Positions 653 to 13,307 of a stretch of DNA of 13,307 nucleotides are shown here, piece by piece. The notes under the pieces were generated by a model. The model was not told the origin of the DNA. It saw only the letters and a program-made list of their open reading frames with translations, and did not search any database. The stretch is from Parasteatoda tepidariorum (Eukaryota). The stretch is from the NCBI RefSeq assembly GCF_043381705.1, contig NC_092214.1, forward strand, positions 2,519,823 through 2,533,129, read 5' to 3'. The translations under genes and the position numbers were made by a program. Each line of letters begins with the position of its first letter. The first letter of the stretch is position 1.

Positions 653-764
653 ACCTGTAAGAACAAAAAATTCCTTTATTATCCTTCCCATTCTGAAATA
701 ACAAAGAAGTGAGGGGTATTGGATACCTGTGAGGACAGAAAGTTCCTTTATTATCTATCATCCC
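653..764 (+). repeat. Imperfect ~38-bp direct repeat pair (653-690 'acctgtaagaacaaaaaattcctttattatccttccc' and 725-764 'acctgtgaggacagaaagttcctttattatctatcatccc') immediately upstream of the pogo/Tigger-like ORF. Possibly subterminal repeats or the 5' UTR of that element.
   Basis: The two copies are aligned in the sequence at about 80% identity, 72 bp apart. Their functional role is inferred. Confidence 0.6.
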
Positions 765-841: not shown

Positions 842-2000
842 ATGATAGAATGTTGGAAACTAAAACGTTTTTCCTTGAGTGAAAAGCTTAAAATTTTATG
901 TGAGTTTGACAAAAATGTTGGACTGCAAAATGCTTTAGCAGAACCTCTCAAAATCTCATCAACTGTAGCTAAAATTGTTAAACAACGAGCTGAAATTAAA
1001 AAAGTCTCTGTAGAATGTGGTGAAAAATTGTCAAAAGTAAGAAAGTCATTGAAAAGTAAGAAAGTCATGAAAGTCATCAGTCTTTCTGTTCTTGAGTCTG
1101 ATCTAGTGGAATGGTTCAACATTGCACCAAGAATGTAGCCATTAGTGGACCTCTAATCAAAGAAAAAGCCTTTCAACTAGCTGAAAAGCATACCACAAAA
1201 GACTTTTCTGCATTCAATGGTTGGATTGATTGTTTTAAAAAATGATATGACATAGTCCAAAATAAAGTGTGCGGAAAAAAGGCAGATGTAAAGGAAAATG
1301 TATTGAAAGATTGGAAAGAAAAGTTGCTCAACCTAATTGAAGGATATTCACCATCCAACATTTACAGCGCAAAAGAAACAGAGTTATTTTGTGACTTATA
1401 ATCTGACAAAACATTCTGTTACAAAAATGAAAAATGCTTTGGAAAAAAAGTGGAATGATGACAAAATCTTGGATAACTTCTTTTCTATTTACAGTTTATT
1501 TTCGACATTGTTAGATAAGTCTGTGAATTATTTATCAATGTTCCACTCATCCTCCAATTTTCAATCTAAAAAACGTCTAAGTCATGTTTTTCCCTGCAAA
1601 TTTCACAAGTGTGCTTTAGCCACCAGACCTTGGTATCATTCATTTTGTTACAATTAATTACGGAAAGTGGCTTATGAGGAAAATTATAGCATCGTTAGTG
1701 GAAAATGAGAATAGATACAAAGCCACTGTTTTGGATGCATTATTTTTTAAAGACAAACTTGTAACCAAGTTTCAGAAAATGCAATTCTTTCAAGAAGTGC
1801 TTTCAGGATCACCAATGGGAAGAGTGGAAAACGGCGATGTCTTCTTTTTGTTTGATCCTTCTGAAGAAGTCACATGAAAAGAACTTGCTCCTTATAATTA
1901 ATGCACTTTGTTTATAATAAATGAAGGTTCTGATGCAATTCTGTAGATAGCTGAACAAGGTGTGACTTAAAATTTCAAAGTCAAAATTTCATCAGTTTCA
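842..2000 (+). pseudogene. Decayed pogo/Tigger-family (Tc1/mariner superfamily) transposase. It shows a CENP-B-type N-terminal HTH, a second HTH (Tnp_Tc5-like) and DDE domain segments, broken by several frameshifts and in-frame stops.
   Basis: The ORF at 842-1138 translates to ...KLKRFSLSEKLKILCEFDKNVGLQNALAEPLKISSTVAKIVKQRAEIKK, a CENP-B/pogo N-terminal HTH pattern. At ~1135-1245 the next frame gives VAISGPLIKEKAFQLAEKHTTKDFSAFNGWIDCFKK, the classic PISGP...DFKASNGWL..FKKRH motif of pogo/Tigger. At ~1260-1400 the translation is GEKADVKENVLKDWKEKLLNLIEGYSPSNIYSAKETELF, matching GE.ADVE...L..LIEEGGY.P.QIFNADETGLF. At ~1861-1900 it reads KNLLLIINALCL (compare KILLLIDNAPSHP), and at ~1940-1975 AEQGVT*NFKVK (compare MDQGVILTFKSY). 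At least five frame changes or stops are needed to thread these together, and the sequence turns non-coding and AT-rich after ~2000. Confidence 0.8.
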
Positions 2001-2291
2001 AAAAGTTTTCTCGTGAATAAAAATTTCAAAAACTAGAAAACGGATGTCTTTGTTAGCATGCAATGTCTTTTTAAAAATTAAGTATAGTATTGAAAGATCT
2101 CATTTGAAAAAAATATAAATGTATTTATAACCTTTATTGTAATTATTACTTGCACTTTATTGACATAAAAAAGGCTATGTTACTGTCAATCATTATATCA
2201 GTTTCATAATTCTTTTTAATGTGTTAATGTGTTTTCTCAAAATAAGTCCAGTATTTATGAATTATAAGTAAATAGGTGGGCAATTCCATAT

Positions 2292-2305
2292 GTGACGGAA
2301 TGACA
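2292..2305 (+). repeat. Copy 1 of the 14-nt motif GTGACGGAATGACA (context tgtgacggaatgacatttt).
   Basis: Exact string match in the sequence. The same 19-nt context 'tgtgacggaatgacatttt' recurs at 2472-2490. Confidence 0.9.
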
Positions 2306-2473
2306 TTTTGACTTGCATGATGACAATTAATTGAAGTTTCTATGCATCTAATTTCAAATAAACATGATTTTTTTCTCGTGCATATCATTATTATTGATAT
2401 AATGTGATTCATAAACTAAAAAAAAAGAATTTTGTACTTTTTTTATTTTTAATTTTATGAACTTTTTACTTGT

Positions 2474-2487
2474 GTGACGGAATGACA
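2474..2487 (+). repeat. Copy 2 of the GTGACGGAATGACA motif, 182 bp downstream of copy 1.
   Basis: Exact string match. Confidence 0.9.
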
Positions 2488-2659
2488 TTTTGGCAACCAA
2501 GCTTTCGGCATGCCGCTTAGAACTGGTAGTTTCTGTGAATTTTGCAACTATTATTTTCCTGAACTATTTTTTACTTTTAGTATAATGTGTAAGCAATGTA
2601 AATTGTGAATTTGGAAAATTAACCTCAGGTTGGCTAGCAGTTATTAACATCTATTTGCT

Positions 2660-2687
2660 GTGACGGAATGACCGTGACGGAATGACA
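2660..2687 (+). repeat. Copies 3 and 4 of the motif as a head-to-tail tandem doublet (gtgacggaatgac-cgtgacggaatgaca), 186 bp downstream of copy 2.
   Basis: String match. This doublet is the inverted counterpart of the doublet at 4107-4142. Confidence 0.9.
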
Positions 2688-2710
2688 AAAAGTTTAGTGG
2701 AAGAAAGTCT

Positions 2711-3200
2711 TCATTTAAAAAATGTTTTATTAATATGTAAATGATAAACAGAATGTATCAGATGAACAGAATTAATATTTACGTAAGAATCAGTTAAAAT
2801 TTCAACAATTTGAAAATTAGGTTGTTTTAGAAGAGGTTTTATATCTAACTTGTCAATGTCACATCTTATCTTTGTTCTCAGAAAATTTATGCATAAATCA
2901 ATTTTTGTCTCATGTTCTTTAAATACTTTAACATCTAAATCGTCTTTGTTTATCAAAGTAATTTGCGCTGCATATAAATCTGCCTTCTTTTTTTTTCGCA
3001 GTATGGGACAATGATTAAAGAGCCGACCGCATACTCCTCAATCATATTTCCCATTTCCTCTTCAAAACAGTGGCTTTTCAAATCATACACTTGGTTTTGG
3101 TTAAAATTAGAAAGCATTTCAATTTTGATGATTCGCTTCTCAACTACATGAGCATCTAGTGCAGGTCTCTTGTTCCTGGCAATGCTAATGTAGCAAGTGT
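2711..3200 (-). pseudogene. Frameshifted ORF remnant of unknown product inside the motif-bounded segment. One frame gives ...YISIARNKRPALDAHVVEKRIIKIEMLSNFNQNQVYDLKSHCFEEEMGNMIEEYAVGSLIIVPYCEKK, followed after a -1/+1 shift in a poly-A run by LINKDDLDVKVFKEHETKIDLCINFLRTKIRCDIDKLDIKPLLKQPNFQIVEILTDSYVNINSVHLIHSVYHLHINKTFFK.
   Basis: About 160 codons free of stops are reconstructed from the minus strand with one frameshift at the A9 run near 2990. I recognised no family motif, and this segment is less AT-rich than its surroundings. Confidence 0.25.
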
Positions 3201-3741
3201 CTAGCTGAAGTCATTCTCTTTTACCTTCTCTTAAATAGAATAGCTGGACAAAAACAAAACTTCAACGATTTGTTGCTTCGACTTTATGAAGTCATAAAAT
3301 TCTTTTACATATTATGTGCCGTTTTACAGCAGCCAACATCTTGTTTGGCCTTTTAGAACAACATCACAATTACATGGAATTTATAGGTGCATGTGCTGTG
3401 AGGTATTAATGAAATACACTTAACAAAAATAAGAATAAGAACAAAAATGAGATAAGACACACTTTACATCAATATATGCTTCTTTATGAAAAGCCTCTTT
3501 TAAGGCCATAAGTATATATTGCATCTGCACTCTTCGTTACTCTGTCAGAGTTTGTATTATGACTGAATCCTTCATACTTGGGGGCTTGTAACTAACATCA
3601 TCTTGACAGTAAAATTTTTTTAACCAAATTAAACAGCTCATCAACATTACTTTTCTCACTTAGTTTCTTTTGAGTTCGATGTTAAATACTTCTCACATAA
3701 AGACTGAATTAATTTTTTTACCTCTATTGGTGATTTTGGAA

Positions 3742-3787
3742 GTGAGTGTACAATTTTTTTTATGGTGAGTGTACAATTTTTTTTATG
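3742..3787 (+). repeat. Perfect 23-bp tandem duplication (gtgagtgtacaattttttttatg, two copies).
   Basis: Exact repeat seen in the sequence. Confidence 0.9.
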
Positions 3788-3984
3788 GCTTTACCAAGAC
3801 TCTGCAGGAATTTGTATAGGGAATTTAAATTATTTGTATGTGAAGAGATTGGTAGAATTTGATTTTTTCTTTGTTTACACAATCTCTGCACAACAGCGTT
3901 TGCACTTCTGAGTTTTTTAAGTCCAACTTTTGTCGCGGAAGCTTTCTTCTCTGCCTTTCTTTCTCTGTTTTTTTTCTTCATCAT
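3760..3984 (-). other. Short minus-strand ORF (74 aa) with a strongly basic N-terminus (MMKKKNRERKAEKKASATKVGLKKLRSANAVVQRLCKQRKNQIL...), resembling an NLS or a DNA-binding tail. It may be a remnant of a protein encoded by the motif-bounded element, and its coding status is uncertain.
   Basis: Entry in the six-frame ORF track. The lysine/arginine-rich composition is unusual for a random AT-rich ORF, though AAA-rich DNA gives K-rich translations trivially. Confidence 0.2.
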
Positions 3985-4106
3985 ATCATGGGGATCTTGG
4001 TCTTTTTCAACATTTTATCTGTCTTTCAACAGCTGTTTTAGCCATTAGGTTAATTGAAAAAAAAATAATTCCCTAGTTTTTGACTAAGCTTCTCAAGGAC
4101 TCGTTT

Positions 4107-4142
4107 TGTCATTCCATCGCCGAAGATGTGTCATTCCGTCAC
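4107..4142 (-). repeat. Copies 5 and 6 of the motif in inverted orientation (tgtcattccatcgcc...tgtcattccgtcac, the reverse complement of gtgacggaatgaca). Copy 5 is degenerate (gatggaatgaca).
   Basis: Reverse-complement string match. Confidence 0.85.
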
Positions 4143-4285
4143 GCTAATTATTGGAAGTTAATAATCAAATGCATAGAATTTTACAATTTCTCATTGATTC
4201 TTATGCCACATCTGCTTTATATTCCAAAATATACACATTTTCATTCAAAAACGCAGTTGCTATTTAAAAAAATATACTAAAACAT

Positions 4286-4299
4286 GTGACGGAATGACA
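4286..4299 (+). repeat. Copy 7 of the GTGACGGAATGACA motif on the plus strand, followed by an A-run.
   Basis: Exact string match. Confidence 0.9.
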
Positions 4300-5529
4300 C
4301 AAAAAAAAGTTACTTTTATTTAATATATTAAACTTAAAATGACTTAAAGGCTATGTTTTAAATGTTTAAATTTTGTACTATATGCATATTTTTATCAAAA
4401 TATTGCAAAAGAAAGATACATTTCTTTTATTTTATAAGTATTTTTCAAGAAAACAATTTGAGCACAAATGTGAAGAATTCACTTGTCAGTCATGTGATTA
4501 CTTTAGAATGATGCCAGATTCAAAAAACTTAAAATTATCAAAAATTAAACAGTAATATGTAGACTTTGGCTATTTTTGAACATATTTTTAAAATTAAAAT
4601 ATGCAATTCATAAAAAAAAAATTTCACTTAAAAGTTGACAATTTCGTGGAATTGCCCAGGTGTCTTCACATTATAGCGGACTCACGTTATAGCGTCTGTT
4701 TTTGTTTGGACTGCAAGGGGTCATTGTCCTACAGAAAGCTCCTTATTATTTTAGGGTTTCAAAATCTCCCACAAATTGTTTTTGGTTGTGATTCCACACG
4801 TTGGTTTTAGTTCTATTTCTCTGTCTTCATCGATATCACTTTGCTCTTATCTTCTGCAACTATTTCCTTTTCTGACAATACCGTAAGTTTCAATACTTTT
4901 ATCAACTGATTCCTAAACACCAAACCTGATGTTTGATGAGCTTTCCCCAAACTGTAACAAACCTTCATTTTTTCCTTTGTCAATAAGCATCAGAAGATGC
5001 CATTTTTCTTCTCAAAAGGAAATAACTTCATAACTTTTTTTAAATATCGGTAAAATTTCTGAACAGTAGATGTGGGAATCTCTAAGTTTCAAAATGATCT
5101 AAACTGGTAATAACATTATTATAACAGCATTTGTGATGGGACAGTAAAACAAGATTATACACAGGGAAAACCAAGGTTGCAAGAATATTTGTTCAAAACT
5201 GAACTGCATTTATGTATACATATCATCATTGATTTGACAAATACGTAAGGAAGATTATTTTTACTATTTATAACTTTTTCTATCTCAGCATTATTTTTTT
5301 TTAATATCTAAAAGAAATAATGATGTAAAATATGAATTTATGTGATACAGCTTAACTCTGGTAACAAATATAGAAATCTTATTTAAAAATATTTTGCATT
5401 TAAATGTTATAGCAATATAACTGTGACTCCTTTCTTTTTGGGGCTTTAACCCTTTTGGTTCTACTGTCATGCATAGATGCCAGTAAGAAGCTCTTTCATT
5501 TCGACCTGTTAGAGTGCTTTCTTGTTTAT

Positions 5530-7380
5530 CCCTAGCCAGTGGTGTGTCAGGTCTTTTTTTATTTTAAATCAAATTTTAAATATCTGGCTTTTTTGAAATT
5601 CAATTTCTTAGGAACAGTTCTACCGATTTTGCTCAAATTTCTTATTTTGCCATGTAAAATTATATTCTTTAAAATGATGCAAAAAATTGTATACCTTACT
5701 ATTGCAAATTTTTTGTGACCATTATTAAATATAATAATAAAATATAACAAATATTTCATAAGGCTTATTCTTTGCATGAAATTATCTTTGGACAAACAAA
5801 TTTTATAATCTATGCAAAATTTTTTCAAATTTGCTTAAAAAGTTTTAGATATATAGCAAAATAAGCAAAAAGTAAAATTAATATTATGGGGTCAAAACTG
5901 TAGACTGTTGGAACCATATTTCCCAGATTGCGGCTACCCCCTACTTTTGGGGGTGTAGTGAGTCAAATAGCAGTGAGCAAGATAGCTTTTACAAGGCTTA
6001 CACAAATTCGGATAGCAGCGATGAGAAAGAAATAAGATTTCCGAGAAATATAAATAGAATTACATTGTATAATTCTATTCATCAGTGCAATCTTAGTGAT
6101 ACTGAATGTAATGAAGATACCATTGACGAGATTTTGCAAGAATCAGTCATTGATGAAGAAAGAAGAACTGATGTTACTGAGGAAAATAAAATTCTCTTTT
6201 TCTGAGGCAGACGGCATCATTAGACAATTACCTGGTGATGTTAATCCATATTATGTGTTTGAACTGTTCGCTGATGACGAAATAATAGACCTACTTGTAT
6301 CGGAAACAAATTGACACACGGAACAAAAGGTATATAAATCTGAGCTAACACTGTGTTCATGGATGCATAACTAGACACCTACTTATCCTCAAGAAATAAA
6401 AAATTCTTGGGACTGATTTTATACATTAGGATTTGTAAAAGTAAACCGCTTTTCCAATTATTGTTCGAAAAGCTCTCTGTATAACTTTCATTATCGCGTA
6501 CTATTATGTCACGAAACAGATTCGTGTTACTATTGAGTAATTTTAATTTTGCCAATAATGTGTACTTTGCTCGTAAAGATCAACTTGGAAATATACCTTC
6601 ACTTTTCAACAAACTGGAATGAAAGTATAAAAAAATATTCACGCCTGAAAAACACATTGCTATTGATGAAAAATTGATTCCATGGCATGGGAGACTCATC
6701 TTCAAACAATATATACCAAATAAAGCGCACAAATATGGAATCAAATTATTTCAATTATGCTCAAGCACGGGATATACATGAGACAAGATGAAAATTTATT
6801 CTGGTAAATCAGCTGAAGGTGTTAGAGAAACAGGATTAGCGCACAGCGTATGTCTTCAGCTCGCAGAGAAACTTTTCTATCAAGGACGAACATTTTACAT
6901 TGATAATTTTTATACGAATTATGAATTAGCGATATTATGCCTAAAGCGCAAGACCCATGTAGTGAGAACACTTAAGAATGACAAAAAGTTCCTCCCAAGT
7001 GATATTCTTCATTGCAAACTAAGAAAAGGGGAGATGGTATCCAAAACAGATAACAGGATTGTCAAACATCAATGGAGAGACGCAGGACTTGAAAATTTTA
7101 TCCTCCAAAATTGCTCCTATCATGGTACCAAGTACAAAAAAATCATAGCATTCATGCTGTTTCACCAAGGCAACAGACATCTGCAACATTGAAAACACTA
7201 GTTGTTGTTGAACTTAATGCAGTAAAATGTGGTATGGATTATTCCGAAATTTAGGGTTGACTGAAAATATAACAAATCCTTGTCTTTGTCGGAATCAGCA
7301 TAATATCACTGTTCCTAAAAATGATTCCATAAAAAAAGCATTAGAGGTGCTTGGAGACAATGTTATGCAGGTAAATGATG
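5530..7380 (+). mobile_element. Decayed piggyBac-like DNA transposon. A candidate 5' terminus CCCTAG lies at 5530-5535, preceded by TTAT (a degenerate TTAA target). The 5' leader is ~356 bp before the ORF start at 5886. The 3' boundary is uncertain: a candidate TTAGGG|TTGA lies at 7251-7260, or the 3' end was disrupted by the adjacent LINE fragment.
   Basis: The CCCTAG terminus sits about 350 bp upstream of the ATG, which matches the known piggyBac architecture (TIR CCCTAGAAAG..., ORF starting ~330 bp in). An alternative 5' candidate, TTAA|CCCTTTTGG, lies at 5436-5446. The boundaries are inferred. Confidence 0.65.
5886..7310 (+). pseudogene. piggyBac-family transposase pseudogene with multiple frameshifts and premature stops.
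   Basis: ATG GGG TCA at 5886 gives MGS, matching the piggyBac N-terminal MGSS, but a stop follows after 5 codons. An acidic N-terminal stretch reads ...SDSSDEKE...ECNEDTIDEILQESVIDEERRTDVTEENK. NPYYVFELFADDEIIDLLVSETN matches piggyBac DPLLCFKLFFTDEIISEIVKWTN. MSRNRFVLLLSNFNF matches MSRDRFDFLIRCLRM. HIAIDEKLIPWHGRLIFKQYIPNKAHKYGIKLFQLCSSTGYT*D matches [34 protein letters not shown].TGY, with an in-frame TGA at ~6780. GRTFYIDNFYTNYELAILCLKRKTHVVRTLKNDKKFLP matches the catalytic-core motif NITCDNWFTSIPLAKNLL...TIVGTVRSNKREIP. Confidence 0.85.
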
Positions 7381-7384
7381 TCAA

Positions 7385-8045
7385 ATGAGCAGATCTTAGA
7401 CTTAGAGGTTGGGCAGCTCTAACGAGCGGGGCACATCGACCAGAGGTCTATAGTACCCAAACCCTAAATCATGATTAGCATGAAAGCCCTATAGCTGAAA
7501 TAATCAGTGTCACAGAGTATGTGTCGTGATGTCTCTTCTTCAAGATTACAACCCCGACAAAGAGAATTGGTTTCTATTCCCATTATGTGTATGTGTCTCC
7601 TGAGGATGCAGTGTCCAGTAAGTAGACCAATGATCTTCCTTAAACTGTTTCTATTAAGCTTTAAAAGCTCTTTTTGACGTACACTAGGACAGTCACAATT
7701 TAGCTCCTTAGCTTGTCTCTGACCGTCAGCAGTGCACCATTGCTCATGGGCAATTTTGCCATAGATCTTGAATATGGATGCCCTAAAACAGGTGGGAGAA
7801 ATTCCCAGTGCAGGTTCAGGGCCCCAGTAAATTGCATTAGAGCCAGCCCGCCGCTTCATCAGCTAGCTCATTTCCACCGATACCGATATGTCCAGGTACC
7901 CAATGTGGGGATACTCTGTTATGAGTGAATTGGTCACAGAGGACAGAGAAGCTGTCCCACACCAACAAAGAGGTGATCAAAGTCCTAAAAGAATTTCAAG
8001 AAAATACCAACTTATTGTCCAAGTTGTTCCGACCAACCCCAGCTT
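7385..8045 (-). mobile_element. 5'-truncated non-LTR (LINE) retrotransposon fragment holding the 3' end of ORF2 (RNase H domain plus C-terminal Cys/His tail) and the 3' UTR. It lies adjacent to, or inserted into, the piggyBac-like remnant.
   Basis: See the pseudogene entry below. Coding similarity stops abruptly at ~8045, where the sequence becomes AT-rich and non-coding. A GC-richer 3' UTR-like stretch spans 7385-7463. Confidence 0.75.
7464..8045 (-). pseudogene. Non-LTR retrotransposon ORF2 C-terminal fragment: RNase H domain (...YKAGVGRNNLDNKLVFS*NSFRTLITSLLVWDSFSVLCDQFTHNRVSPHWVPGHIGIGGNELADEAAG), then after a frameshift the tail ...AIYWGPEPALGISPTCFRAS...WCTADGQRQAKEL...LLTGHCILRRHIHIMGIETNSLCRGCNLEEETSRHILCDTDYFSYRAFML.
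   Basis: The WVPGH.GI.GNE.AD..A motif is the RNase H signature of retroelements. The downstream FIGPEP.CGIS-like stretch and the LTGHC.L..HL...G.....C..C...ET..H.LC.C..Y...R motif are typical of LINE ORF2 C-termini in the I/R1/LOA-like group with RNase H. There is one frameshift near 7850 and one stop near 8000. Confidence 0.8.
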
Positions 8046-8216
8046 TGTATAAAATGCTTTAAAGTTTTACATTCTAAATAATTATCTTAATAAACGATTT
8101 TCATATTACTTTTATAACAATTTAATACTTTTGTTACTTCCTGTGAAATGTCTTTTCAAATACATACTAATATCCTTCTGAAGTAGTCAAATAAGTGCCT
8201 GATCAGAAACTTTGCT

Positions 8217-8236
8217 GTCACCCGAATATGGGTGAC
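8217..8236. repeat. Perfect 7-bp-arm palindrome GTCACCC-GAATAT-GGGTGAC.
   Basis: Seen directly in the sequence. Confidence 0.8.
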
Positions 8237-8992
8237 ATGGCAATCAACGTGTTAATTATATGGAAAGTTATCATATGTGAAAAATAGTATTTGTCCTTAA
8301 AAAATTAAGTCTGCAAGGTTGGAGAGAAAAAAATTTTCTAAAAATATTTATTTAACTTGATTATTTTAATAAATGTCTAAATTTCAGAAGAAACAAAACA
8401 CATAATTCACTGCTCAATTAAATTTCAGAGAAAAATAAAGTTTCCGATTTTGAAAATAGCTTCAAAGTAGATTTTTTTTTATTAATTAAAAAATTAAATT
8501 CAGTAATGAAAAACTGAACTTTATGGAAGTATTTAAATTTTGTGATATGTAAAAATTCAAGCTTTTCATTGGCCAAATTTGTCCATCGTAATTGCAAAAC
8601 TTAAACTGAGTTCCACCCTAGAAATCCATGGATTTACGAAATATAGATTTTTGTATTCATACGATAGATCAATGAAGAAGCTAAACTTTCTAGGCTCTTT
8701 CTTTCGTCAGGCTCTGCATGATCTTTGCATTTTTATGTGCTATTTGTATTTTATACTGTATATAACTGTTTTTACCTAATTCTATTTACTTAGTATTTCA
8801 TTATGATTAGTTTTTCAATTGATTTTGTGCACTGTTAAAGTTGTACACTTTTATTTAATTTTATTCACTTTTGATTGCATTTGTTATGTATCATTTTAAC
8901 AATTTCATATATTTAATAAGATGAGTTTGCATCTCACCTTTAGTTTTGTTTTAAAAACTGTTTGTTTGGTGCAGCATGTCTTTTGTTGGGCC

Positions 8993-9066
8993 TTAAACCC
9001 TACATTCAATTAACCCTACATTAAGATTAAACCCTAACCTGATATTAAACCCTAGATTCAATTCAA
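8993..9066. repeat. Four-copy ~17-bp minisatellite (ttaaaccctacattcaa / ttaaccctacattaaga / ttaaaccctaacctgata / ttaaaccctagattcaa). Each unit contains AACCCT (complement TTAGGG-like), and one unit has ccctaacc, so this is a degenerate interstitial telomere-motif-derived repeat.
   Basis: Periodicity and the AACCCT core repeated four times are visible directly. Confidence 0.75.
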
Positions 9067-10809: not shown

Positions 10810-10911
10810 GTTTGTTTCAAGCAATTTTTAATCACTTTTTAAAATAATTTTTTAACCCAATATTTTCACATTTCATTTTTCTGCTAATAAATTGTTATGT
10901 GTTGAGAATAT

Positions 10912-10988
10912 TTTGACAAATTAACTCATTAATTCATTATTTTGACAAATTAACTCATTAATTCATTATTTTGACAAATTAACTCATA
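10912..10988. repeat. 29-bp tandem repeat (tttgacaaattaactcattaattcattat), 2.6 copies.
   Basis: Exact tandem copies at 10912, 10941 and 10970. Confidence 0.9.
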
Positions 10989-11380: not shown

Positions 11381-12050
11381 GGGTAGATTGTGGATATAAA
11401 TTGTATTAACATTTAAGGAGGATTGGATTATCGCTTTTATGGCGTATTAGTGGGTTTGTAGCTGGTTTTTCTTGTGGATCTTTTTTTGTCCTGATGTCCC
11501 CTGGATGCGGGAGGACTTTTGAGCGAGTAAACAGGTCAGTATGGATTATTTCGCCTTGGTGAAAAAAGTATAAGGGGTGTGAAGAGTGGCTGAAAAAGCA
11601 GTACGACAGGAGTGCGGATCGTGCCCGATGGAATGTTGGGTGGAAACATCACCGCTGACAGGATCTATCATGGCTGCTAGAAGTGTGTTCTGAGCCGGTA
11701 TCATCGAGGATGAGTTTGGATATAGCTGGAGTCTCGGAGTGAGTTGATCTAGGCTGAAATGCTGAAAGGTTGATGTTTGGAAAAAGTCTCTGGATGGACT
11801 AAGTACGCAACATTGGTCGGATGAGCTGTTGTCTGGAAGAAAGTTGATCTAAAGCCTCAGAATAGTTGACGGGAAGTGATAGATTGAATGTCGCTAAGTT
11901 CAAGATTGTTGGCAAGAATCGAGCGGTCCTCGGCAGAAAATCGTATGTTTCTAAAGAACTGAATGGCGATCAGAAAGTCGAAGTTCTCCTAGTCCACAAG
12001 TCTAGCTGCAGACCCGGTGGACGTTCCAGAAGGTGATCTGCAAGTTCCTT
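11381..12050 (+). other. ~670-bp compositional island that is G+A-rich on the plus strand (about 40% G and 15% C in sampled lines), roughly 50% GC against a ~30% GC background, with many CpGs. It has frequent TGA stops in all plus frames and only a low-complexity S/T/P/Q ORF on the C-rich minus strand. It could be a non-coding CpG island, a promoter, an ncRNA or a foreign insert, and the identity is unknown.
   Basis: Base composition was counted by eye on 11581-11640. CpG dinucleotides occur throughout (cgg, gcgg, cgtgcccgatgg, atcgagcggtcctcggc...). The six-frame track shows no ORF of 60 aa or more across the region. Confidence 0.55.
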
Positions 12051-12782: not shown

Positions 12783-12830
12783 TTTTAAACTTACATATGT
12801 ATATGTATATATATATATATTTATGTATAT
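12783..12830. repeat. (TATATG/TA)n microsatellite (left flank of the MITE).
   Basis: Seen directly. Confidence 0.9.
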
Positions 12831-13186
12831 ACAGTAGGGAACCGATTATCCGGAACGATCTGGACCATCACTATTCCGGATAACTGATTTTTCCGGTTTT
12901 CTAAATCGATACAAAAAGCCGTTTTTTTATTGTTAAACCCAACTAAAAAAAAAATAATATTTGGAAATAATCTTAAAAAGAAGAAAAAACGATGACGTAA
13001 TACACTAATGTTTATTTCTGAAATGATGGTAAGGTAACTATCTTTCAAAAAAGAAAGAAAAATCCTAAAATCTTATGAGGGAAAAAAAAATTTTTTAAGA
13101 AAAATGGCGAGAAAATTTATCGAATTTCGTTCCGGTTTTTTGGTTTTCCGGTTTTCTGATTTCCAGATAACGGGTTCTGTACTGTA
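12829..13186. mobile_element. ~354-bp MITE with Tc1/mariner-style termini. The left end reads TA|CAGTAGGGAACCGATTATCCGGAA and the right end, reverse-complemented, TA|CAGTACAGAACCCGTTATCTGGAA (about 19 of 24 positions match). It has internal TTCCGGTTTT(C) subterminal repeats and sits in a TA-rich microsatellite, so a TA target-site duplication cannot be told apart from the flanking sequence.
   Basis: The terminal inverted repeats were aligned by eye. The CAGT start and flanking TA are typical of the Tc1/mariner superfamily and its MITEs. The six-frame ORF 12821..13048 on the minus strand lies inside the element and is spurious (poly-F and poly-K from A/T runs). Confidence 0.55.
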
Positions 13187-13208
13187 TATATATATATTTA
13201 TGTATATG

Positions 13209-13242
<34 letters not shown>

Positions 13243-13307
13243 TATGTATATATATATTTATGTATATATATATTTGTATATATATATTTATGTATATATA
13301 TATGTAT
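13185..13307. repeat. (TATATG/TA)n microsatellite (right flank of the MITE), running to the end of the window.
   Basis: Seen directly. Confidence 0.9.

What the first reader, a model, noticed from the sequence alone, without database searches (positions are those of the whole stretch)
2278..4300. Phased array of a 14-nt motif (GTGACGGAATGACA) with inverted doublets bracketing a ~1.5-kb segment: candidate uncharacterised TIR element
The motif occurs seven times in 2 kb and nowhere else in the 13-kb window that I could see. Three plus-strand occurrences are spaced 182 and 186 bp apart (2292, 2474, 2660). The third is a head-to-tail doublet, and its mirror image, an inverted doublet, lies at 4107-4142, so the pair has terminal-inverted-repeat geometry around a 1.48-kb interior. 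A further plus-strand copy sits at 4286. Copies 1 and 2 share a longer 19-nt context (tgtgacggaatgacatttt). Both outer ends of the inverted doublets are flanked by GCT, a possible 3-bp TSD, and a 12-mer inverted match (tgggcaattcca at 2278 and its reverse complement at 4638) could mark outer termini, although chance 12-mer inverted matches are expected in 13 kb. The motif contains TGAC...TGAC half-sites. Multiple subterminal copies of a short transposase-binding motif are known from CACTA/En-Spm, hAT, Mutator and P elements, but this motif and its ~184-bp phasing do not match any family I can name. The interior carries degenerate minus-strand ORFs, including a K/R-rich N-terminus and a ~160-codon frameshifted ORF, with no recognisable transposase motifs. 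The array begins where the pogo/Tigger-like coding remnant fades out at ~2000-2290, so it may instead have truncated that element or be its rearranged 3' part.
Basis: partly seen in the sequence, partly recalled or inferred. Interest (0 to 1): 0.6.

Follow-up and report, generated by a model that had tools for sequence, protein, structure and literature searches.

The report
Decayed transposon with repeated 14-nt motif
A 14-base motif repeated seven times across about 2 kb most likely marks the protein-binding sites of a dead cut-and-paste DNA transposon in a transposon-rich, AT-rich animal genome; this is an ordinary kind of object, but its family could not be identified.

Summary
GTGACGGAATGACA occurs seven times between 2292 and 4299 (five exact copies, one with 1 mismatch, one with 2) and nowhere else in the window, against 0.03 expected by chance. 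The spacings (182 and 186 bp), the head-to-tail doublet, the inverted doublet and the GCT flanks are all as described. The 12-mer inverted match lies at 2277-2288 and 4647-4658, not at 2278 and 4638. Sequence around the motif copies is unrelated, so the motif is a conserved island rather than a recent duplication. The interior carries a decayed minus-strand ORF of about 420 codons (open stretches P~0.0015). It has no Pfam domain, and I found no homologue. My preferred reading is a 2,380-bp non-autonomous TIR transposon (2278-4657) with 11-nt TIRs and an AGGT target-site duplication, in which the motif is a subterminal binding site as in En/Spm-type elements. The main rival is a 1,483-bp element (2660-4142, doublet TIRs, GCT duplication) nested in a relative. 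The defining features I could test for CACTA, Tc1/mariner IR/DR, pogo, PIF/Harbinger and piggyBac are not met. No other copy could be retrieved, because the source genome is not in the searchable collections, so mobility and family remain unproven. Interest is modest.

The parts
2274..2277 (.). AGGT, candidate left target-site duplication of the 2,380-bp reading
   Evidence: Sequence. The same tetranucleotide follows the right arm at 4658-4661. P(AGGT) from window composition is 0.003.
2278..2288 (+). Left terminal inverted repeat GGGCAATTCCA (11 nt; the exact inverted match is 12 nt, 2277-2288)
   Evidence: only 2 sites in the window, 0.06 expected. The chance that the 30 nt left of copy 1 has an 11-mer inverted partner within 3 kb is about 0.03.
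2292..2305 (+). Motif copy 1 (exact), 14 nt inside the left terminus; the 20-nt context 2291-2310 is shared with copy 2
   Evidence: (D11)
2474..2487 (+). Motif copy 2 (exact), 182 bp after copy 1
2657..2659 (.). GCT immediately outside the left doublet (candidate 3-bp duplication of the 1,483-bp reading)
   Evidence: P(GCT) = 0.0085 from window composition
2660..2687 (+). Head-to-tail doublet: copy 3 (GTGACGGAATGACC, 1 mismatch) and copy 4 (exact), followed by AAAA
2711..3984 (-). Decayed ORF of about 420 codons (K/R-rich N-terminus MMKKKNRERK...). About 5 frameshifts and 6 in-frame stops lie on my stitched path, and the middle part is uncertain.
   Evidence: No Pfam match, no homologue for the stitched ORF in the word-indexed search, none for its C-terminal 108 aa in the exhaustive search, and no PDB match.
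3742..3787 (.). Exact 23-bp tandem duplication that shifts the minus-strand reading frame
   Evidence: (D14)
4107..4142 (-). Inverted doublet: copy 5 (GCGATGGAATGACA, 2 mismatches, 4107-4120), an 8-nt spacer, and copy 6 (exact, 4129-4142). It aligns with the left doublet at 31 matched positions over 39 columns and lies 122 nt upstream of the ORF's ATG.
   Evidence: 2 of 200 shuffles reach the score
4143..4145 (.). GCT immediately outside the right doublet
4286..4299 (+). Motif copy 7 (exact). With 4127-4142 it forms a perfect 16-nt inverted repeat around 143 nt.
   Evidence: (I13)
4647..4657 (-). Right terminal inverted repeat (TGGAATTGCCC on the + strand)
4658..4661 (.). AGGT, candidate right target-site duplication

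Best explanation
Positions 2278-4657 form one dead, non-autonomous cut-and-paste DNA transposon of 2,380 bp. It has short 11-nt terminal inverted repeats (GGGCAATTCCA) and made a 4-bp target-site duplication (AGGT). The 14-nt motif GTGACGGAATGACA is the sequence-specific binding site of a protein of the element family, either a transposase or a TnpA-like accessory protein. Four copies lie in the left subterminal 410 bp, all pointing inward, and three lie in the right subterminal 550 bp. The innermost sites on each side are doublets in mirror orientation. I infer that several protomers bound to these sites pair the two ends into a synaptic complex before cleavage at the TIRs. The right doublet lies 122 nt upstream of the element's own ORF and could also act as an operator for self-regulation. 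The minus-strand ORF (2711-3984) is the decayed remnant of an element-encoded protein of unknown fold. What is shown: the motif statistics, the geometry, the TIR and AGGT flanks, the open-frame excess, and the absence of homologues in the searches run. What is inferred: protein binding, synapsis, mobility, and the existence of a family. About 0.65 of my belief goes to 'transposon-derived, with the motif as a binding site', of which about 0.4 goes to these boundaries.
For: The motif is 7 versus 0.03 expected and confined to 2 kb. Flanks of the copies share no similarity beyond about 27 nt. Seven near-perfect copies therefore sit in unrelated contexts, which is what constrained binding sites look like and what recent segmental duplication does not look like. 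Motif decay (3 changes in 98 nt) is in line with my rough, inferred estimate of 4-5% neutral divergence needed for the roughly 11 ORF-disabling lesions. No selection after insertion needs to be invoked. The 11-nt TIR sits 3 nt from copy 1 (positional P~0.03) and has identical AGGT on both outer sides (P~0.003). The doublets are symmetric and bracket the ORF. The minus-strand open frames exceed the null. This architecture, with short TIRs plus asymmetric reiterated direct and inverted subterminal motifs bound by fast-evolving element proteins, is documented for CACTA elements (PMC2613891). Multiple binding sites per end that enforce ordered synapsis are documented for Sleeping Beauty (PMC7827188). 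The surrounding DNA is a transposon graveyard containing pogo, piggyBac and non-LTR fragments.
Against: Only one locus was seen, and no second copy, empty site or intact relative could be retrieved. The window contains about four independent non-low-complexity 12-mer inverted matches, including a 15-mer that I take to be chance, so the outer TIR alone is weak evidence. The right terminal 345 bp carries no motif copy. Copy 7 points the 'wrong' way. The GCT/GCT flanks of the doublets (P~0.0085) are left as coincidence. The ORF has no detectable homologue and gave only low-confidence structure models (pLDDT 43-49), so it may never have been a gene.
Confidence: 0.4

Rival explanations
1. Two nested elements of one motif-defined family. 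A compact 1,483-bp element (2660-4142) has the form TIR-ORF-TIR, with 31-of-39-nt TIRs made of motif doublets and a 3-bp duplication GCT. It inserted into an 894-bp MITE-like relative (2278-2659 plus 4146-4657, 11-nt TIRs, AGGT duplication) that carries three single motif copies.
For: Both flank identities are explained (GCT P~0.0085, AGGT P~0.003). The doublet TIRs end exactly where the GCT begins. The ORF fills the space between the doublets, with 122 nt on its 5' side and 24 nt on its 3' side, which matches the layout of small autonomous transposons.
Against: The inner and outer elements would belong to one family yet have different termini. This reading needs insertion of a family member into a relative. 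If the ORF were the transposase of a compact autonomous element, some homologue or DDE-type Pfam match would be expected, and none was found. By contrast, the equally decayed pogo remnant next door is still recognised. The regular 182 and 186 bp spacing that runs from the outer copies into the doublet would be a coincidence.
Confidence: 0.25
2. A non-mobile cluster of binding sites, such as a host cis-regulatory module, an origin- or iteron-like array, or the remnant of a ~184-bp satellite in which only the motif stayed conserved.
For: The left copies are regularly spaced at 182 and 186 bp, close to a nucleosome repeat. The motif contains two TGAC half-sites 8 nt apart and a GGAATG core. No transposase is present.
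Against: Exact 14- to 20-nt identity among copies is unusual for host factor sites. Mirror-image doublets with identical flanks, plus an outer TIR with identical flanks, are transposon hallmarks. No residual similarity between the ~184-bp units supports a satellite origin. The locus is made of transposon debris.
Confidence: 0.1
3. The array is the 3' terminal region (a long, repeat-bearing TIR) of the adjacent pogo/Tigger-like element, or a rearranged part of it.
For: It starts about 400 bp after the pogo ORF stop at 1877 and lies on the same strand. Some pogo-superfamily and Tc1-like elements have long TIRs with internal direct repeats (established knowledge; IR/DR in PMC7827188).
Against: No motif copy, even with 4 mismatches, lies in 1-2291, where the matching left TIR should be. 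The pogo 5' side carries a different 31-nt direct repeat (653-683 and 725-755) with no convincing inverted partner downstream. There are no TA flanks.
Confidence: 0.05

Closest known systems
CACTA (En/Spm, Tgm, Tam1) transposons and their non-autonomous derivatives
   Same: Short TIRs of 11-13 nt. Asymmetric subterminal regions of a few hundred bp carry a 12-20-nt motif reiterated in direct and inverted orientation. These motifs are bound by an element-encoded protein (TNPA or TNP1) that evolves so fast that homologues are hard to find (PMC2613891). The 3-bp duplication matches only if the inner boundaries are used.
   Different: The termini are not CACTA. The preferred boundaries give a 4-bp duplication. 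No Tnp2-type transposase was detected. The host is an animal, probably an arachnid. Copies are about 180 bp apart rather than densely packed.
IR/DR-type Tc1/mariner elements (Sleeping Beauty, Tc3, Minos, Bari3)
   Same: Two identical ~20-nt direct repeats lie about 180 bp apart at one end (2291-2310 and 2473-2492). This resembles the outer and inner transposase-binding DRs within ~220-bp IRs. Several sites per end are used for ordered synapsis (PMC7827188).
   Different: There is no TA duplication. The right end does not mirror the left. There are seven sites, not four. No Tc1-type DDE or paired-like domain was found in the interior.
P, hAT (Ac/Ds) and Mutator elements with subterminal transposase-binding repeats
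   Same: The principle of short TIRs plus internal or subterminal binding motifs (established knowledge, not tested here).
   Different: Their duplications are 8 bp (P, hAT) or 9-10 bp (Mutator). Their motifs are shorter (hAT) or single (P). No matching transposase domains were found.
Generic MITEs and non-autonomous deletion derivatives
   Same: No transposase, TIRs plus a target-site duplication, AT-rich body, and location among other transposon debris.
   Different: At 2.4 kb it is large for a MITE. It retains a long decayed ORF and an unusually explicit binding-site array.

Membership tests
CACTA / CMC (En/Spm-like) | Termini 5'-CACTA...TAGTG-3' (CAC(T/A) in animal CMC elements) | tested here: not met
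   The termini are GGGCAATTCCA (outer) or GTGACGGAATGAC (inner)
CACTA / CMC (En/Spm-like) | 3-bp (2-4 bp) target-site duplication | tested here: inconclusive
   GCT/GCT flanks the inner boundaries and AGGT/AGGT the outer ones. Which pair is real cannot be decided from one locus.
CACTA / CMC (En/Spm-like) | Reiterated subterminal motifs in direct and inverted orientation | tested here: met
   Seven copies, five on the + strand and two on the - strand, within 410 and 550 bp of the ends
CACTA / CMC (En/Spm-like) | Tnp2-type transposase in autonomous copies | tested here: not met
   No Pfam hit in any minus frame of the interior at E<=1. Autonomous relatives could not be sought.
Tc1/mariner IR/DR group | TA target-site duplication | tested here: not met
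   The flanks are AGGT or GCT
Tc1/mariner IR/DR group | Long (~200-250 bp) IRs, each with an outer and an inner DR, mirrored at both ends | tested here: not met
   The left side has DRs 182 bp apart. The right side has a 22-nt-spaced doublet plus one copy in the opposite orientation, and no terminal copy.
Tc1/mariner IR/DR group | DDE_3 or Tc1-type transposase with a paired-like DNA-binding domain | tested here: not met
   No Pfam hit in the interior or in the minus frames of its right flank, 4110-5600
pogo/Tigger (as part of the neighbouring remnant) | The same terminal sequence at both ends of the element, with TA duplication | tested here: not met
   No motif copy upstream of 2292, and no significant inverted similarity between 560-840 and 1878-2277 or 4658-5000
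PIF/Harbinger | 3-bp TWA duplication and a DDE_Tnp_4 transposase (plus a Myb-like ORF) | tested here: not met
   The flanks are GCT or AGGT, and there are no Pfam hits. The GGG... start of the TIR is only a resemblance.
piggyBac / Kolobok | TTAA duplication | tested here: not met
   The flanks are AGGT or GCT. The window's real piggyBac copy (5956-8255) has no motif copy.
Superfamilies with 3-4-bp non-TTAA duplications (Sola, Zator, Ginger, Academ, Chapaev) | A superfamily-specific DDE transposase, with termini known only from curated consensus libraries (Repbase/Dfam) | not testable with these tools
   No transposase is present in this copy and no transposon consensus library is available here. 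The TSD lengths are recalled from the literature and were not checked.

The most novel reading that the evidence does not exclude
The element belongs to an undescribed lineage of animal DNA transposons. Its own ~420-aa protein has no detectable relative: the whole stitched ORF gave nothing in the word-indexed search of 5.8 billion sequences, and its C-terminal 108 aa gave nothing among 1.84 billion representatives. In this reading the protein recognises a 14-nt site arranged in ~184-bp phase and in mirrored doublets, making a TnpA-like, binding-site-driven transposition system outside plants' CACTA elements.
Probability: 0.1. Interest if true: 0.6.

Novelty: new member of a known kind. Interest (0 to 1): 0.3.

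Why it matters
If confirmed as a family, the element would give a clean, easily searchable 14-nt signature for annotating an unclassified DNA-transposon family in an AT-rich, probably arachnid, genome. It would also be an animal example of the 'short TIR plus reiterated subterminal binding sites' design best known from plant CACTA elements. The identity of the binding protein would then be a well-posed question. As it stands, this is one decayed insertion in a transposon graveyard, with no sign of a host function.

Tried and rejected
The pattern also matches the 8-bp repeat (GGAATGAC)n. 
(2) Viral-contig scans for motif pairs and for TIR plus motif found nothing. The 15-mer gave 21 single hits, which is chance level.
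(3) Ten window ORFs were looked up by exact sequence and none is in the protein collection, so the source genome could not be reached through the look-up of encoding contigs.
(4) The stitched interior ORF gave no hit in the word-indexed search. The 108-aa stop-free piece gave 0 hits. PDB gave nothing. AlphaFold models were too poor (pLDDT 48.8 and 43.3) to justify fold searches.
(5) Relatives of the window's piggyBac (L244-L248, from ENA, JGI, Hadza-gut and Logan contigs) share only the piggyBac element with the window and hold no motif or other repeated 12-mer.
(6) I guessed a Tc1-like N-terminus at 4816-5090(-). It has no Pfam support and I dropped it.
(7) I looked for pogo TIRs to delimit the neighbouring element and found nothing significant.
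(8) Rfam and tRNA scans found nothing relevant.
(9) A literal search of papers for the motif returned only an unrelated aphid UGT (UDP-glycosyltransferase) paper, presumably an oligonucleotide sequence.
(10) The THAP-site resemblance of TGGGCA was checked by eye, and the TxxGGGCA register is not met.
Full report
CONTEXT. The window is AT-rich (about 30% GC) and made of eukaryotic transposon debris.
- A pogo/Tigger-type remnant lies at about 842-1877(+), with HTH_Tnp_Tc5 at 9e-8 and DDE_1 at 1.6e-7.
- A piggyBac-type element lies at about 5956-8255(+), with DDE_Tnp_1_7 at 1.7e-40. It shares 77-90% DNA identity with metagenome contigs.
- That piggyBac copy is interrupted at 7396-7985 by a GC-rich non-LTR 3' fragment carrying RNase_H and zf-RVT.
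- The best named relative of that fragment is a protein of the spider Parasteatoda tepidariorum at 73% identity. The host is therefore probably an arachnid, which is an inference.
- No tRNA or relevant Rfam family is present.

OBSERVATION. GTGACGGAATGACA occurs at 2292+, 2474+, 2660+ (1 mismatch), 2674+, 4107- (2 mismatches), 4129- and 4286+. Shuffles give 0.03 expected, and 0 of 200 reach 7.
- Allowing 4 mismatches adds only background hits.
- No other 9- or 10-mer with at least 3 G/C is repeated three or more times in 2274-4661.
- The inverted 12-mer is misplaced in the finding. It lies at 2277-2288 and 4647-4658.

THE MOTIF IS AN ISLAND. Local alignments of the 170 nt upstream and downstream of every copy score no better than shuffles, except where the flanks overlap or contain another copy. 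A sensitive self-BLAST finds only motif-centred matches of 14-33 nt.
- The ~184-bp intervals are therefore not recognisable tandem repeats, and the copies did not arise by recent duplication of larger blocks.
- Seven near-perfect copies in unrelated contexts are what one expects of functionally constrained binding sites in an element that was active until shortly before insertion.
- The three deviations in 98 motif nucleotides are compatible with my rough estimate of 4-5% neutral decay, which is what the roughly 11 ORF-disabling lesions imply. This is an inference, and it means no selection at this locus need be invoked.

INTERIOR. On the minus strand, stop-free stretches of 108, 85 and 84 codons lie between the doublets. 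The sum of the top three exceeds a Markov-1 null at P~0.0015.
- They can be stitched into an ORF of about 420 codons running from the ATG at 3984 to the stop at 2711.
- The lesions include an exact 23-bp tandem duplication (3742-3787) and a slip in a homopolymer run near 2990.
- The ORF has no Pfam match at E<=1 and no hit in the word-indexed search of 5.8 billion proteins.
- Its C-terminal 108 aa gave no hit among 1.84 billion representatives, and there is no PDB relative.
- Single-sequence models are unreliable, with pLDDT of 48.8 and 43.3.
- By contrast, the equally decayed pogo remnant next door is still recognised by Pfam. The ORF is therefore not a decayed member of a common DDE transposase family.

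BOUNDARIES. Two sets of transposon-like ends exist.
- Inner ends, 2660-4142 (1,483 bp). The doublets align as inverted repeats with 31 matches over 39 columns and one 8-nt indel, and 2 of 200 shuffles reach the score. They end exactly where identical GCT trinucleotides begin (P~0.0085 from composition). The ORF fills the space between them.
- Outer ends, 2278-4657 (2,380 bp). An 11-nt inverted repeat GGGCAATTCCA lies 3 nt from copy 1 and is flanked on both outer sides by AGGT (P~0.003).
- The chance of an 11-mer inverted partner for the 30 nt left of copy 1 within 3 kb is about 0.03. However, the window holds about four unrelated 12-mer inverted matches, so the repeat alone is weak evidence.

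CHOICE BETWEEN THE MODELS. The single 2,380-bp element accounts for all seven copies. Four sit at offsets 14-396 from the left end and three at offsets 358-537 from the right end. It also accounts for the regular left-arm spacing that runs into the doublet, for the mirrored doublets around the ORF, and for the lack of a recognisable transposase, since it would be a non-autonomous copy.
- The cost is that GCT/GCT becomes a coincidence.
- The nested model explains both flank identities. It needs a family member inserted into a relative with different termini, and it would make the orphan ORF the transposase of a compact element, which sits badly with the absence of any homologue.
- I put 0.40 on the single element and 0.25 on the nested pair, so about 0.65 on 'transposon with the motif as binding site'.
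- A non-mobile binding-site cluster or satellite remnant gets 0.10.
- Being part of the pogo element gets 0.05. There is no motif upstream of 2292, the pogo 5' side has different 31-nt repeats, and there are no TA flanks.

MECHANISM (inferred). By analogy with En/Spm-type elements, a protein of the family binds the 14-mers. In those elements, TNPA-like proteins bind 12-20-nt motifs reiterated in both orientations in asymmetric subterminal regions, and they evolve too fast for homology to be seen (PMC2613891).
- Sleeping Beauty provides a second analogy. There, several binding sites per end enforce ordered synapsis before cleavage (PMC7827188).
- In this element, the mirrored doublets would nucleate pairing of the two ends, and cleavage would occur at the short TIRs.
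- The right doublet, 122 nt upstream of the ATG, could also serve autoregulation.

COMPARISON WITH KNOWN FAMILIES. The design matches CACTA elements, but the CACTA termini and the Tnp2 transposase are absent.
- The two identical 20-nt repeats 182 bp apart recall IR/DR Tc1-like elements. However, the TA duplication, the mirrored right end and the Tc1 transposase are all absent.
- PIF/Harbinger (TWA duplication) and piggyBac/Kolobok (TTAA duplication) fail on the duplication.
- Superfamilies with 3-4-bp duplications (Sola, Zator, Ginger, Academ, Chapaev; recalled from the literature) cannot be tested without a transposase or a consensus library.

LIMITS. No second copy was found.
- Viral-contig scans were empty or at chance level.
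- The window's ORFs are not in the protein collection.
- Contigs carrying related piggyBac copies hold no motif.
- Mobility, family size and true termini therefore rest on one locus.

VERDICT. The object is most likely an ordinary, dead, unclassified non-autonomous DNA transposon with an unusually clear binding-site array. I rate novelty as 'new member of a known kind' and interest at 0.3.

Noticed in passing
window 5956-8255 (+), insertion at 7396-7985: A piggyBac-type element (DDE_Tnp_1_7, 1.7e-40) shares 77-90% DNA identity with contigs from unrelated metagenomes (JGI 3300007142, ENA ERZ27284660/80, and a Hadza gut sample). It is split by a GC-rich (44%) non-LTR 3' fragment on the minus strand (RNase_H, zf-RVT), whose best named relative is a Parasteatoda tepidariorum (spider) protein.
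   Followed up: partly
window 653-683 and 725-755: Two 31-nt direct repeats (ACCTGTRAGRACARAAARTTCCTTTATTATC), 72 bp apart, lie just upstream of the pogo/Tigger remnant (ORF 842-1877). They may be that element's own subterminal repeats. No convincing inverted partner lies downstream.
   Followed up: partly
window 11420-12030: A GC-rich (46%), strongly G-skewed (+0.35) block sits in otherwise 25-30% GC sequence. It has a 100-codon open frame on the minus strand (11549-11848) and no Pfam match. Its origin is unknown, and it may be another retroelement fragment.
   Followed up: partly
window 10909-10987; 8993-9063: There is an exact 29-bp tandem repeat (2.7 copies, TATTTTGACAAATTAACTCATTAATTCAT) and an 18-bp repeat (about 4 copies, TTAAACCCTACATTAAA).
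   Followed up: no
window 12792-12855 and 13161-13307: (TATATATGTATA)n-like microsatellite arrays form 64-nt inverted arms (77% complementary) around a 305-bp spacer. They give a weak sub-threshold mir-297-like Rfam hit (37.8 bits against a gathering score of 90), which is almost certainly low-complexity noise.
   Followed up: no
window 1719-1733 and 3063-3077: An exact 15-nt inverted match (AAAGCCACTGTTTTG) links the pogo DDE region and the interior of the motif element. The two sites are read in different frames and have no extended similarity, so I took it as chance. It shows that 12-15-nt inverted matches do occur by chance in this window.
   Followed up: yes
window 4127-4301: A perfect 16-nt inverted repeat (TGTGTCATTCCGTCAC / GTGACGGAATGACACA) encloses 143 nt. 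As single-stranded DNA it folds into a long hairpin (z = -3.5). It could be a miniature foldback unit of the same family, or simply two oppositely oriented binding sites.
   Followed up: partly
loci L001-L243 (e.g. L159 6721-7125): The core GACGGAATGAC, repeated at short spacing, is common in bacterial and metagenomic contigs as (GGAATGAC)n-type or 17-nt-period tandem arrays. These are unrelated to the window's motif.
   Followed up: partly
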